This document shows, one piece after another, positions 49,401 through 55,400 of a DNA stretch of 64,000 nucleotides (its first letter is position 1; each line of letters begins with the position of its first letter). The notes under the pieces were generated by a model that worked only from the letters and a program-made list of their open reading frames with translations, was not told the origin of the DNA and did not search any database. Location: contig NC_092348.1 in NCBI RefSeq assembly GCF_963676685.1, positions 4,526,001 through 4,590,000 of the forward strand, in the 5' to 3' direction. The translations under genes were made by a program, and so were the position numbers. This DNA is from Mytilus edulis (taxonomy: Eukaryota).

Positions 49401-52400
49401 ATAAAATATAACTTGTAACTTTTAATCCTGTTGTTTTTTAGAGTGCAGATGGAGAACAACATTAAGACAAACTCTGCCTTTTTATGTAAATATAGATTCT
49501 TACACTGCAACAAGTGTATTACGATATTTCTCCACTCGAGACAGTTAAATTTTATTATTTAAAGTGCGAGGCTTGCCGAGCCCTTTAAATAATAAAATTT
49601 AACTGTCCAGAGTGGAGAAATATCGTAATACACGAGTTATAGTGTCGGAATCTGTTTCTCTAATGCTTTTTATCGTTCTTTTTCAAAGATTTTCAGAAAA
49701 TTGTGCTCTTTATATGCGACGTCATCAGGCAAGGTCCCCTTTTTTCATGACGTCACAATAGGAAAATTGAGAAGAAAACAAAACATTTTGACGTCATAAT
49801 CAAATTTCGACTAATCATTTGCCGAGAACAGATTTTTCACTAGTGAGGAGAAATATTTTTCTCACACCAGTCAGGAAATGTGAAAATAGCACAAAAATTA
49901 TAGAAACTAAATTACAATCATGTCTCACTTTTATCTACCATGCCACTTGCTTAACAGAAATGGGTATTTCTTTTCACTTCTTGAATTCTTCTTTTACTTT
50001 GTATTAACTGCAATTATATTAAGTCCCTACAGAACAAACATTTATTTCTAGTTGATCCTGCAAAATGACAAACGCCAAGACACTTGATGAACTTTGATAG
50101 TGCAGGGATATAAGTGATCCCCTCTTTCTGGTTAATGACGTCATAAAGGTGTGCATAATTGACAAATTTTTTCGATAAAGGACATAACTCGAAAGTAATC
50201 TATTATATTAGGATATATGATTTACTGTAACAATTCATCCACACTAATCTTCCACTGATTATCTGCCATTGAAACATTCCATACCTATTGTAAATTTGTT
50301 CATACTAGTGTTTGTAGAAAAACTAAATTGTTGTCTATAATTAGATTGATGGAATATTAACTTAATTGTTGTCTATAGCTAGATTGATGGAATATTAACT
50401 TAATTGTTGTCTATAGTTAGATTGATGGAATATTAACTTAATTGTTGTCTATAGTTAGATTGATGGAATATTAACTTAATTGTTGTCTATAGTTAGATTG
50501 ATGGAATATTAACTTAGTTGTTGTCTATAGTTAGATTGATGGAATATTAACTTAATTGTTGTCTATCTTTAAATTGATGGAATATTAACTTAATTGTTAT
50601 CTATTGTTAGATTGATGGAATATTAATTGTTGTCTATAGTTAGATTGATGGAATATTAACTTAATTGTTGTCTGTAGTTAGATTGATGGAATATTAACTT
50701 ACTTGTTGTCTATAGTTAGATTGATGGAATATTAACTTAATTGTTGTCTATCGTTAAATTGATGGAATATTAACTTAATTGTTATCTATCGTTAGATTGA
50801 TGGAATATTAATTGTTGTCTATAGTTAGATTGATGGAATATTAACTTAATTGTTGTCTATCGTTAAATTGATGGAATATTAACTTAATTGTTATCTATAG
50901 TTAGATTGATGGAATATTAACTTAATTGTTGTCTATAGTTAGATTGATGGAATATTAACTTAATTGTTGTCTATAGTTAGATTGATGGAATATTAACTTA
51001 GTTGTTGTCTATAGTTAGATTGATGGAATATTAACTTAATTGTTGTCTATAGTTAGATTGATGGAATATTAACTTAATTGTTGTCTATCGTTAAATTGAT
51101 GGAATATTAACTTAATTGTTATCTATCGTTAGATTGATGGAATATTAATTGTTGTCTATAGTTAGATTGATGGAATATTAACTTAATTGTTGTCTGTAGT
51201 TAGATTGATGGAATATTAACTTACTTGTTGTCTATAGTTAGATTGATGGAATATTAACTTAATTGTTGTCTATCGTTAGATTGATGGAATATTAACTTAA
51301 TTGTTGTCTATCGTTAGATTGATGGAATATTAACTTAATTGTTGTCTATCGTTAAATTGATGGAATATTAACTTAATTGTTGTCTATCGTTAGATTGATG
51401 GAATATTAACTTAATTATTGTCTACAGTTAGATTGATGGAATATTAACTTAATTGTTGTCTATCGTTAGATTGATGGAATATTAACTTAATTGTTGTCTA
51501 TCGTTAGATTGATGGAATATTAATTGTTGTCTATAGTTTGATTGATGGAATATTAACTTAATTGTTGTCTACAGTCAGATTGATGGAATATTAACTTAAT
51601 TGTTGTCTATCGTTAGATTGATGGAATATTAACTTAATTGTTGTCTATCGTTAAATTGATGGAATATTAACTTAATTGTTGTCTATCGTTAGATTGATGG
51701 AATATTAACTTAATTGTTGTCTACAGTTAGATTGATGGAATATTAACTTAATTGTTGTCTATCGTTAGATTGATGGAATATTAACTTAATTGTTGTCTAT
51801 CGTTAGATTGATGGAATATTAATTGTTGTCTATAGTTTGATTGATGGAATATTAACTTAATTGTTGTCTACAGTCAGATTGATGGAATATTAACTTAATT
51901 GTTGTCTATCGTTAGATTGATGGAATATTAACTTAGTTGTTGTCTATAGTTAGATTGATGGAATATTAACTTAATTGTTGTCTACAGTTAGATTGATGGA
52001 ATATTAACTTAATTGTTGTCTGTAGTTAGATTGATGGAATATTAACTTAATTGTTGTCTGTCGTTAGATTGATGGAATATTAACTTAATTGTTGTCTATC
52101 GTTAGATTGATGGAATATTAACTTAATTGTTGTCTATGGTTAGATTGATGGAATATTAACTTAATTGTTGTCTGTAGTTAGATTGATGGAATATTAACTT
52201 AATTGTTGTCTATAGTTAGATTGATGGAATATTAACTTAATTGTTGTCTATAGTTAGATTGATGGAATATTAACTTAGTTGTTGTCTATAGTTAGATTGA
52301 TGGAATATTAACTTAATTGTTGTCTATAGTTAGATTGATGGAATATTAACTTAGTTGTTGTCTATAGTTAGATTGATGGAATATTAACTGAATTGTTGTC

Positions 52401-55400
52401 TATAGTAAGATTGATGGAATATTAACTGAATTGTTGTCTATAGTTAGATTGATGGAATATTAACTTAATTGTTGTCTACCGTTAGATTGATGGAATATTA
52501 ACTTAATTGTTGTCTATGGTTAGATTGATGGAATATTAACTTAATTGTTGTCTGTAGTTAGATTGATGGAATATTAACTTAATTGTTGTCTATAGTTAGA
52601 TTGATGGAATATTAACTTAATTGTTGTCTATAGTTAGATTGATGGAATATTAACTTAGTTGTTGTCTATAGTTAGATTGATGGAATATTAACTTAATTGT
52701 TGTCTGTCGTTAGATTGATGGAATATTAACTTAATTGTTGTCTATAGTTAGATTGATGGAATATTAACTTAATTGTTGTCTATGGTTAGATTGATGGAAT
52801 ATTAACTTAATTGTTGTCTGTAGTTAGATTGATGGAATATTAACTTAATTGTTGTCTATAGTTAGATTGATGGAATATTAACTTAATTGTGGTCTATAAT
52901 TAAATTGATGGAATATTAACTTAATTGTTGTCTATAGTTAGATTGATGGAATATTAACTTAATGTTTTATCTTTTTTCTTCAGGATAGACCATAAAGATA
53001 AAATGATAAAAGTGGCCTGCACACAAACTGTAGCAATGAAAGAAAATAACATACTAAGTCCTTATGTCTTCATTAAGGTAATGGAAAGGGTTTAAAATAT
53101 ATAATATGGAAATAAATGTGTTTATTTGGTAATAATTTAATGGAATGTAAATAATAAACATAGAAACTTTAAAGTGTTTGAAATGGCATTCTTTGCAAAA
53201 ATATGTAAGACTCAGATCGATGTCCCGTTTCTAATCGACGTCCGTTCCTCAAATCGACGTCCAAATCTGACGTCACAATAAAATATCCTTCCAAATCGAC
53301 GGCCAATTTTATGTTTATCAAATCGACATCCATTCTTGGCTTCTCTAATCAACGGCCAATTTTTAGCTTCTCTAACCAACGTCCGTTTTGGACACAGAAT
53401 ACACAATGACCAGAACCGACAGCAGCTGAAACTTTTAGACCTTTAAACATATTATCGGTGACAATAGGATCTATTTAAAAATATTTTTTTTAAAGACTTA
53501 CAATATACTAGACTAAATATGTAAACAGGTTGTTATATCATTTTTGTCGAGCCTGCAACATAGGGATAGTGATCCGGCGGCGGTGGCTACGGCGGCGGCG
53601 TTAGCTCACTTTTTAAAAGCTTTATATTTTAGAAGGTAGAAGACCTGGATGCTTCATACTTTGTATATAGATACTTCATGTTACTAAGTTTCCGTCAGTG
53701 ACCACTTGAAAAAAAAGTTCAAATTTTTTGTAATGTTGAATTCTCTCTTATTATAAGTAATAGGATAACTATATTTGATATGTGCGTACCTTGCAAGGTC
53801 CTCGTGTCTGTCAGACAGTTTTCACTTGACCTCGACCTCATTTCATGGATCAGTGAACAAGGTTAAGTTTTGGTGGTCAAGTCCATATCTCAGATACTAT
53901 AAGCAATAGGGCTAGTATATTCGGTGTATGGAAGGACTGTAAGGTGTACATGTCCAACTGGCAGGTGTCATCTGACCTTGACCTCATTTTCATGGTTCAG
54001 TGGTTTTAGTTAAATTTTTGTGTTTTGGTCTGTTTTTCTCATACCATATGCAATAGGTCTACTATATTTGTTGTATGGAATGATTGTTAAGTGTACATGT
54101 CTAGCGGGCAGATGTCATGTGACCTTGACCTCATTTTCATGGTTCAGTGGTCAAAGTTAAGTTTTTGAGTTCTAATGCTATATGCCATAGGTCAACTATA
54201 TTTGGTGTATGGAAATATTTTATGATCTTTATGTCAGTAGAGCAGGTTTTATTTAACCTTGACCTCATTTTCACGGTTCATTGCACAGTGTTAAGTTTTT
54301 GTGTTTTGGTCTATTTTTCTTAAACTATAAGTAATGTGTCAACTATATATGTTGTATAGAAGCATTGTTAGCTGTACCTGTCTGCCTGGCATGGTTCATC
54401 TGACCTGGACCTCTTTTTCAAGGTTCATTGGTCTTTGTTTAGTTATTTTGGTTAATGTTAAGTTTATGTGACAGTTGTAATAAAGCTAAGCTTTATACTT
54501 AGGACTATCAACATAATATCAATGATTAGTATAGAAGGCGAGACATTTCATCGTGTGCAGTGTGCACTCTTGTTTTTAATTTCAGAGATTACATAAAAAT
54601 AAGGAGATGTGTTATGACACGAATGATGTAAACATTTCAAATAAGAAAATTAACGGTCTTATTTATAAAAAAAAATCTGAAAAACAAAAATGACAGACAA
54701 AATCCATCGAAAACTACTGTACTACAGGCCCATAAAGAATATATCTGGGTTAAATGTGTGTATGAGCATACAACCTAGAACAGTTGTGTAACAGCACAAC
54801 ATAAAAAATGCCAATTTCTTGCGTATATGTTTCACTCCAGGTTTAAAAATCAGAAATTTGTTGTAAAGTATCTTACAGAGTCCGAATTATAATACAAAAA
54901 GACATTGGCTGTACTTCTTTATTTTGTCTATTGTTGAAGATTACATATTGTCCTATAGATGTCGTTTGGTTTTATTTGTCGTTAGGTTGCTTTTTCTTGA
55001 CATACACTTACATGCATGTCATTTATTAACATGAATAGGAATGACTTACATGCAAGTCATTTATTAACATGAATAGGAATGACACACTACTATGAAGATC
55101 GATTCGATTAACTTTTTATCAAGATAAACTTTAATATGCATTATACTTATTTCGGGTTGCGAAAATCTATATGGAAAGTAGGTATAAATGTTTGAATCCT
55201 ACAAAACATGTACTTGTATAAGTGTTAACAAATAAGTCCAGGAATTTATTATTTATAGACATTGGACATCGATTAGAGAGGACTATAGTCAATCATGCGT
55301 AGTTTTGTCAATACATTCCAGCACATTGGACGGCGATAAAAGTATCAAAATATTAGACGTCGATTTGAGAAACGGACGTCTATAAGAGGCCGGACATCGA

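What the first reader, a model, noticed from the sequence alone, without database searches (positions are those of the whole stretch)
50326..52983. Mirror case in NSMAF: ~70 tandem mimics of a 3' splice site, the last supplying the likely real branch point
Seen: the 38-bp array ends at 52963. Its terminal TTAAC/CTTAAT adenosines are 26 and 21 nt upstream of the exon 5 acceptor G (52983). Upstream units read branch-like TTAACTTAAT, T-rich TGTTGTCT, then TAG (variants CAG, or TCG/TGG which remove that AG). Exon 4 ends in phase 2 (AA), so splicing to the first unit AG gives AAT TAG and to the second gives AAA TTG ATG GAA TAT TAA. Both stop almost immediately. Inference: the array grew from the branch-point region and forms poison decoy acceptors.
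Basis: partly seen in the sequence, partly recalled or inferred. Interest (0 to 1): 0.75.

Follow-up and report, generated by a model that had tools for sequence, protein, structure and literature searches.

The report
Variable intron repeat beside NSMAF acceptor
A 38-base piece lying just upstream of a splice acceptor in a mussel NSMAF gene is repeated 70 times in this genome but occurs once on another chromosome copy; its units are only weak look-alikes of a splice site, so it is likely an ordinary, tolerated length-variable repeat rather than a set of working decoys.

Summary
The array is real: 70 units of 38 bp (50326-52963), one locus in the genome, ending 20 nt before the exon 5 acceptor of NSMAF/FAN. 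Coordinates, branch-candidate distances and stop codons check out. New here: a DNA run holds a haplotype with one unit between the same flanks, so this is a VNTR built on the branch-region segment. 'Poison decoy acceptors' is not supported. The array copies neither the pyrimidine tract nor the real AG. The common unit AG scores 0.6 bits against 11.4 for the true acceptor (25-site model); 66 of 638 ordinary intron pieces made tandem do as well. The branch-like motif is as common before ordinary intron AGs (40%) as before true acceptors (10 of 25). Two RNA assemblies cover exon 4 but no unit; raw RNA was too thin to test rare use. Left open: five CAG units reach 3.4-3.8 bits, and substitutions cluster on the AG-bearing 8 nt (11 of 17). 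It is not a lancelet-type 'mirage' (no exon edge copied). This scan noted related splice-edge repeats before in this genome and on other DNA. Verdict: ordinary intronic VNTR, with a handy 1-versus-many allele pair. Interest 0.2.

The parts
49306..49361 (+). NSMAF/FAN coding exon 4 (counting from the ATG exon at 46480), 56 nt, ends in phase 2; donor GT at 49362
   Evidence: Open frame over 15 exons; RNA contigs of X3 and X2 cover this exon only, depth 9.1 and 25.6
49362..52983 (+). Intron 4, 3622 nt, about 980 nt without the array
   Evidence: Exon borders
50326..52963 (+). 38-bp minisatellite, 70 units, 22 unit types with higher-order duplicated blocks; single locus; copy number varies (one-unit haplotype seen)
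   Evidence: for the one-unit contig
51427..51987 (+). Span holding the five units whose first AG reads CAG (G at 51427, 51574, 51726, 51873, 51987): the best acceptor look-alikes, 3.4-3.8 bits, 1.0-1.6 kb upstream of the real site
52405..52410 (+). One unit variant that reads as a modest 5' splice-site look-alike (2.4 bits; true donors -0.8 to 7.6)
52945..52971 (+). Predicted 12-bp RNA hairpin (three G-U pairs) between the last unit and the start of the pyrimidine tract, with A52957 in the loop; predicted equally with 1 or 8 units
   Evidence: prediction only
52954..52963 (+). Branch-point candidates A52957 (-26) and A52962 (-21) in the last, partial unit; a third motif at 52946 (-37)
   Evidence: position only, not mapped
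52964..52983 (+). Pyrimidine tract and AG of the real exon 5 acceptor, outside the array; strongest of 25 acceptors in the window (11.4 bits)
52984..53077 (+). NSMAF/FAN exon 5, 94 nt, part of the N-terminal PH domain
   Evidence: PH_FAN positions 91-120, E 8.9e-06

Best explanation
This is a single-locus, length-variable 38-bp minisatellite built on the segment just upstream of the exon 5 pyrimidine tract, and it is likely tolerated rather than functional because the spliceosome would still pick the much stronger real acceptor. Shown: the array, its single locus, a one-unit haplotype beside multi-unit sequence in the same DNA run, block duplications of variant units, and that the tract and the real AG are not copied. 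Inferred: growth and turnover by slippage or unequal exchange; U2AF binding at the unique tract fixes the branch site in the last partial unit (A52957 or A52962), the first AG after it is the real one, and branch-to-AG spacing does not change with copy number because units are added upstream; any rare slip onto a unit AG would give a premature stop and be degraded, as for most intronic AGs.
For: One 533-nt contig (depth 100.8) of X16 maps 50136-50366 (record 1-238) and 52923-53256 (record 191-533), with private flank differences and a 7-nt duplication found in none of the 69 window units; array words in the same run stand at about 1250-1410. Unit AG 0.6 bits vs 11.4; 1 of 25 true acceptors scores as low; all 109 array AGs summed equal 4.7% of the true site's weight. 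66 of 638 random intron pieces and 4 of 25 pieces from -58..-21 of true acceptors do as well when made tandem. RNA contigs of X3 and X2: exon 4 covered, depth 0 on 50189-50460. X21 raw reads: 0 on 52870-52981. Long minisatellites are common here: 4 over 1 kb in the window, 5 loci in the next 200 kb, one of 8.7 kb in another NSMAF intron. Copied splice sites in lancelet are reported not to disturb splicing (PMC3087553, PMC3902484, passages).
Against: The unit AG is better than about 95% of 567 ordinary intron AGs, and five CAG units beat 99% of them and 3-5 of 25 true acceptors. AG plus branch-like motif together arise in only 22 of 638 random pieces. Substitutions cluster on the AG-bearing 8 nt (11 of 17, p 0.003; 6 of 17 on the AGs, p 0.016), seen in none of six other arrays. 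RNA power is poor: raw runs gave about one read on exon 5 and none on exon 4, contigs drop rare forms, decay would hide poison products, and the exon 4-exon 5 joint itself was not displayed. The acceptor model rests on 25 hand-annotated sites. The raw RNA is from organism A, while the best DNA holders are organism B.
Confidence: 0.75

Rival explanations
1. Poison-acceptor rheostat: some unit AGs, mainly the five CAG units, are used at a rate that rises with copy number and send part of NSMAF mRNA to nonsense-mediated decay; the AG-destroying variants are a trace of selection against this.
For: CAG units 3.4-3.8 bits, inside the range of weak true acceptors; branch-like A 13-18 nt before the first AG of each unit; 104 of 109 AGs stop within 6 codons; 6 of 17 distinct substitutions hit the AGs, and the stronger AG is lost more often (27 of 69) than the weaker (9 of 69). 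In ABCA7 a one-unit cryptic donor is used and gives an out-of-frame transcript (PMC5954066, passages).
Against: No RNA contig or read on the units tested. AG loss is centred in the array (7, 13, 7 of 23 units by thirds) and the unit nearest the real site keeps both AGs; two of the six AG changes arose on units that had already lost that AG; three changes create or strengthen AG sites. p 0.016 does not survive seven arrays tested. In ABCA7 the one-unit retention did not change with VNTR length. The one-unit haplotype shows the array is dispensable.
Confidence: 0.12
2. The array is not spliced to but weakens exon 5 recognition in a length-dependent way (sequestering branch-binding or other RNA-binding proteins, or pairing with the real branch and tract), causing exon 5 skipping (94 nt, frameshift) or intron retention, as for the ABCA7 and TERT VNTRs.
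For: ABCA7 exon 19 skipping rises with intron 18 VNTR length (PMC5954066, passages); the TERT intron 6 38-nt VNTR is needed for exon 7-8 skipping, possibly by RNA pairing (review PMC6562651, passages). Each unit can pair with 52959-52971; the last two units fold with z -2.8; this region is the most paired of 25 acceptors.
Against: Predicted pairing of 52959-52971 is the same with 1 unit (unpaired 0.13-0.21) and 8 units (0.13-0.16). The acceptor is the strongest in the window. No intron depth in RNA contigs. No splicing data by allele.
Confidence: 0.08
3. Assembly artefact: either the 70 copies are inflated in the genome assembly, or the one-unit contig is a collapsed loop and the locus is not polymorphic.
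For: Short-read contigs often collapse tandem arrays (own knowledge). The long allele was not spanned by any laid record; its word depth in X16 shows only about 13 copies' worth directly. That both pieces belong to one record is inferred from equal length, depth, strand and complementary ranges.
Against: The contig's private flank differences, its 7-nt duplication and the exit to the tract lie at most 27 nt apart, so each link sits inside a 31-letter word, and no window unit has that duplication. The window array has ordered variant blocks that repeat, which assembly inflation would not make. Unit words are also raised about 7-fold in X19.
Confidence: 0.05

Closest known systems
Lancelet 'mirage' minisatellites (Adh3, globins BflGb6 and BflGb9, troponin C, PGBD5); PMC3087553 and PMC3902484, passages seen
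   Same: Tandem repeat at an intron end, unit size in the Adh3 range (10-72 bp), length differs between haplotypes, may carry cryptic AG/GT, no disturbance of splicing seen.
   Different: Mirages span the exon-intron boundary. This array stops 20 nt short of the AG and copies neither tract, AG nor exon; its AGs are ordinary intronic ones brought behind a branch-like motif by the tandem join.
Human ABCA7 intron 18 25-bp VNTR; PMC5954066, passages seen
   Same: Intronic VNTR abutting a splice site, kilobase alleles (12 to about 427 units), cryptic use of a unit gives a premature stop.
   Different: ABCA7 copies the real donor GT and has a measured length-skipping link; here it is the acceptor side, the real site is not copied, and no splicing effect is shown.
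Human F7 intron 7 37-bp VNTR; PMC1557585, abstract and outline seen
   Same: Similar unit size; repeated splice-like sites that normally stay silent.
   Different: F7 units are identical copies of the authentic donor; these are weak acceptor look-alikes.
NARS2 splicing-associated tandem repeat; PMC10078293, passages seen
   Same: A repeat in the branch-point/3' splice-site region.
   Different: NARS2 lies between branch site and AG and lengthens that distance; here units are added upstream of the last branch candidates, so the distance is fixed.
Human TERT intron 6 38-nt VNTR (block 6 repeats); review PMC6562651, passages seen
   Same: Intronic 38-nt VNTR that can form RNA pairs.
   Different: TERT has minigene evidence of function; equal unit length is taken as coincidence (sequences not compared).

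Membership tests
Single-locus minisatellite VNTR | Head-to-tail units of about 10-100 bp | tested here: met
   38 bp x 70.2, 93% matches
Single-locus minisatellite VNTR | Confined to one locus | tested here: met
   48 of 48 exact core matches in G000 lie in the array; all 20 DNA matches too
Single-locus minisatellite VNTR | Copy number differs between haplotypes | tested here: met
   One-unit contig in X16 against 70 units in the window; long allele not spanned by a laid record
Single-locus minisatellite VNTR | Variant units spread in duplicated blocks | tested here: met
   Repeating multi-unit blocks in the unit map
Mirage repeat (exon-edge minisatellite) | Unit spans an exon-intron boundary | tested here: not met
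   Array ends at 52963, exon starts at 52984; definition from PMC3087553
Mirage repeat (exon-edge minisatellite) | Units carry copies of the authentic splice signal | tested here: not met
   Tract and AG (52964-52983) occur once in the genome; only the branch-candidate segment is copied
Mirage repeat (exon-edge minisatellite) | Normal splicing is undisturbed | tested here: inconclusive
   RNA contigs cover exon 4 and no unit; raw reads too few
Splicing-regulating tandem repeat (ABCA7, TERT, NARS2 type) | Repeat length correlates with, or causes, a splicing change | not testable with these tools
   Needs matched genotype and deep RNA or minigenes
Splicing-regulating tandem repeat (ABCA7, TERT, NARS2 type) | Repeat changes branch-to-AG distance (NARS2 mechanism) | tested here: not met
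   Last branch candidates stay at -26 and -21 whatever the number of upstream units
Poison splice event (unproductive splicing coupled to decay) | Alternative site is used in RNA | tested here: inconclusive
   0 depth on tested units in 4 of 4 RNA runs laid, but low power
Poison splice event (unproductive splicing coupled to decay) | Use gives a premature stop | tested here: met
   109 of 109 within 20 codons; but 68% of 498 ordinary AGs too, 91% within 40
Poison splice event (unproductive splicing coupled to decay) | Element is conserved | tested here: not met
   Reduced to one unit on one haplotype; no distant relative was available

The most novel reading that the evidence does not exclude
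A branch-point VNTR: 1 to 70 tandem branch-plus-AG modules segregate in front of NSMAF exon 5, long alleles leak exon 4 into unit AGs or skip exon 5 and lose mRNA to decay, and the clustering of substitutions on the AG-bearing 8 nt records selection purging decoy acceptors inside a minisatellite. A 1-unit/many-unit heterozygote would be a natural allele-specific test of how 3' splice sites are chosen among many branch candidates.
Probability: 0.12. Interest if true: 0.55.

Novelty: new member of a known kind. Interest (0 to 1): 0.2.

Why it matters
As it stands it is one more intronic VNTR next to a splice site, in a genome where such repeats are frequent. Its use is practical: a large length polymorphism in NSMAF intron 4 and a natural 1-versus-many allele pair for asking whether repeated branch-like motifs and weak AGs upstream of a strong tract cost anything. 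If long alleles did lower spliced NSMAF, it would be an acceptor-side counterpart of the ABCA7 and F7 donor repeats, for which two full-text searches here found no direct case (one search listed none by title or abstract start).

Tried and rejected
Dispersed satellite or transposon origin: no second locus. Coding array: longest stop-free stretch 28 codons in six frames. Recursive-splicing site: the unit has AG and GT sharing one G, not AG followed by GT, so not a ratchet point. Cryptic exons inside the array: best donor look-alike 2.4 bits, once; any inclusion holds stops. Branch motif as evidence: no enrichment at true acceptors. Copy-number-dependent masking of the acceptor by RNA pairing: no trend from 1 to 8 units. 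Selection against AGs: the first control (31-bp array) seemed to show the same excess but its reference unit was mis-cut (30 nt); redone it shows none (1 of 24), so the excess is specific to this array among seven but weak after correction and contradicted by where AG loss sits. Raw RNA runs X21 (6% read) and X24 (18% read) gave no power. 7 of the 24 listed runs were laid, on the two ends of the array only, so no exon 4-exon 5 joint could be displayed in one lay and reads inside the array's middle were tested only through likeness to the end units. Literature: searches for mussel intron minisatellites, NSMAF intron 4 splicing and mussel tandem repeats returned nothing relevant (listings only). 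Earlier-findings look-ups by place and by sequence were empty.
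Full report
Observation. The array is as described: period 38, 70.2 copies, 50321-52963 by TRF. Cutting at a 13-nt anchor gives 70 anchors and 69 units between them, 64 of 38 nt and 5 of 33 nt, in 22 types whose order contains repeated multi-unit blocks. The host gene is NSMAF/FAN: 15 hand-placed exons from 46480 to 63343 give an open 419-aa frame, and single exons match Pfam PH_FAN (3 exons, E 3e-10 to 9e-06) and Beach (2 exons) (7 pieces scanned, one other gave a weak GRAM hit, one none relevant to this gene). 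Exon 4 (49306-49361) ends in phase 2, exon 5 begins at 52984. A52957 and A52962 are 26 and 21 nt before the acceptor G. The label 'mussel' comes from earlier AI notes on this genome, not from a test of mine.

What is copied. The unit holds the branch-like motifs and two AGs that, in the single-copy state, lie upstream of them (46 and 42 nt before the real acceptor G). The tandem join puts each unit's branch-like motif 13-22 nt in front of the next AGs. The pyrimidine tract and the real AG (52964-52983) are outside the array and occur once in the genome. A 23-nt core of the unit has 48 exact matches in 1.37 Gb, all in this array.

Copy number varies. DNA run X16 has a 533-nt contig at depth 100.8 that maps to 50136-50366 with record letters 1-238 and to 52923-53256 with letters 191-533. 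I infer from equal length, depth, strand and ranges that it is one record; it then joins the 5' flank to exon 5 through one unit. It differs from the window at 50322, 50323 and 50340 and has a 7-nt duplication after 50341 that none of the 69 window units has. These marks and the exit to the tract are at most 27 nt apart, so a collapsed loop does not explain it. In the same run array words stand at about 1250-1410, and two alleles are seen at 49912-50055 (depth 105.9 with 0 differences, 82.4 with 5), so X16 looks like a short/long heterozygote; it may be the source of the window, which does not matter for the allele claim but is not independent support for the long allele. X19 (organism A) has unit words at about 480-690 against 84 for single-copy sequence; X18 (organism C) has 84 with no single-copy reference. 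Which state is ancestral is not known.

How good are the decoys. A position weight model from 25 acceptors annotated by hand in this window (14 NSMAF, 8 DPM1-like, 3 ATG8-like) gives the real exon 5 site 11.4 bits, the best of 25 (left-out median 5.2). With exon 5 left out of training the common unit AG scores 0.6, the second AG about -4, and five CAG variants 3.4-3.8; all 109 array AGs together weigh 4.7% of the real site. Against this reading: the common AG beats about 95% of 567 ordinary intron AGs and the CAG units about 99%. But 66 of 638 ordinary 38-nt intron pieces made tandem give an AG as good, 22 of 638 with a branch-like motif as well, and 4 of 25 pieces from -58 to -21 of true acceptors (this one included) do so. 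A YTRAY motif at -15 to -45 is found for 10 of 25 true acceptors and 222 of 554 ordinary AGs, so it says nothing by itself. Stops: 104 of 109 array AGs within 6 codons against 28% of 498 ordinary AGs, but these are two sites copied many times, and 91% of ordinary AGs stop within 40 codons.

RNA. 24 runs were listed; 7 were laid, 4 of them RNA or probable RNA, on the two ends of the array. Contigs of X3 and X2 cover exon 4 only (depth 9.1 and 25.6) with 0 on the flanking unique intron and on units 50326-50460; raw run X24 has no read on exon 4 or the units; raw run X21 has about one read on exon 5 and none on 52870-52981. This fits ordinary splicing and gives no sign of unit use, but cannot exclude use below roughly a tenth, nor products removed by decay; the exon 4-exon 5 joint was not displayed.

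Residual oddities. Distinct substitutions cluster: 11 of 17 fall in the 8 nt that hold both AGs (p 0.003), 6 of 17 on the AGs (p 0.016); six other arrays nearby show no such excess. Against selection: loss of the first AG is centred (7, 13, 7 of 23 units by thirds), the unit nearest the real site and the one-unit haplotype keep it, two of the six changes arose after the AG was already lost, and three changes make or strengthen an AG. The one-unit haplotype's duplication lies in the same stretch, which suggests a mutable spot (inference). The last unit and the start of the tract are predicted to form a 12-bp hairpin with A52957 in the loop; the prediction does not change with copy number.

Context. 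The window holds four arrays over 1 kb and the next 200 kb five more loci of at least 250 bp, among them 48 bp x 180 in another NSMAF intron, ending about 66 nt before an acceptor. All four intronic arrays in NSMAF and the DPM1-like gene lie on or within 70 nt of an exon edge, in introns of 450-980 nt without the array; the threshold is chosen after the fact, so this is a lead only. Earlier AI notes report 'mirage' repeats at 2-7% of junctions in this genome (not checked by me).

Mechanism. Most likely (0.75) a minisatellite built on the branch-region segment that turns over by slippage or unequal exchange and is tolerated: the unique strong tract would recruit U2AF, the branch would be chosen in the last partial unit, and the first AG after it is the real one (established model of 3' splice-site choice, own knowledge; not shown here). 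Rivals: leaky poison acceptors (0.12), length-dependent weakening of exon 5 (0.08), artefact (0.05).

Comparison. It works like the silent splice-edge repeats of lancelet (PMC3087553, PMC3902484; passages) and human F7 (PMC1557585; abstract and outline), but it is not a mirage, since the defining exon-intron boundary is not in the unit. ABCA7 (PMC5954066; passages), TERT (review PMC6562651; passages) and NARS2 (PMC10078293; passages) show that intronic repeats can alter splicing; that is untested here, and the NARS2 mechanism does not apply. Searches for a branch-point or acceptor-side minisatellite gave three unrelated reviews, 18 listings none of which showed such a case in title or abstract start, and none; the library lacks most subscription papers, including the original Adh3 mirage paper, which I did not see; no supplements were read.

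Verdict. Observation confirmed; origin claim supported; poison-decoy claim unsupported but not excluded. New member of a known kind (intronic VNTR next to a splice site). Interest 0.2; novel case probability 0.12, worth 0.55 if true.

Noticed in passing
Pfam Glycos_transf_2 match.
   Followed up: partly
L010:1762 to L011:424 (G000:C5:4591762-4600424): Second NSMAF intronic array, 48 bp x 180 (8.7 kb), ending about 66 nt before a BEACH-domain exon acceptor; its AGs score -4.5 bits or less.
   Followed up: partly
window 37631-38847: 36-bp array (34 copies, two unit types) in DPM1-like intron 5, starting 36 nt after the donor on the minus strand; best AG 0.3 bits.
   Followed up: partly
window 26471-31166: 31-bp G-rich array, 155 copies, strong GC skew, downstream of the last DPM1-like exon; used only as a control.
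   Followed up: partly
L010:795-866 and L010:902-947: An imperfect copy of the start of a BEACH exon with its upstream intron sits about 100 nt before the real exon: a single-copy acceptor-side exon-edge duplication.
   Followed up: no
window 46070-46517: NSMAF and the DPM1-like gene are head to head, start codons about 290 nt apart, likely sharing a promoter.
   Followed up: no
window 2602-7510: ATG8/GABARAP-like gene on the plus strand (three exons read by eye, name recalled); used for acceptor training.
   Followed up: no
window 12900-16200: Pyrimidine-rich stretch that reads like a degenerate non-LTR retrotransposon on the minus strand (by eye); not analysed.
   Followed up: no
window 52945-52971: Predicted hairpin across the array end and the pyrimidine tract; as a near-palindrome it could have seeded the first duplication (inference).
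   Followed up: partly
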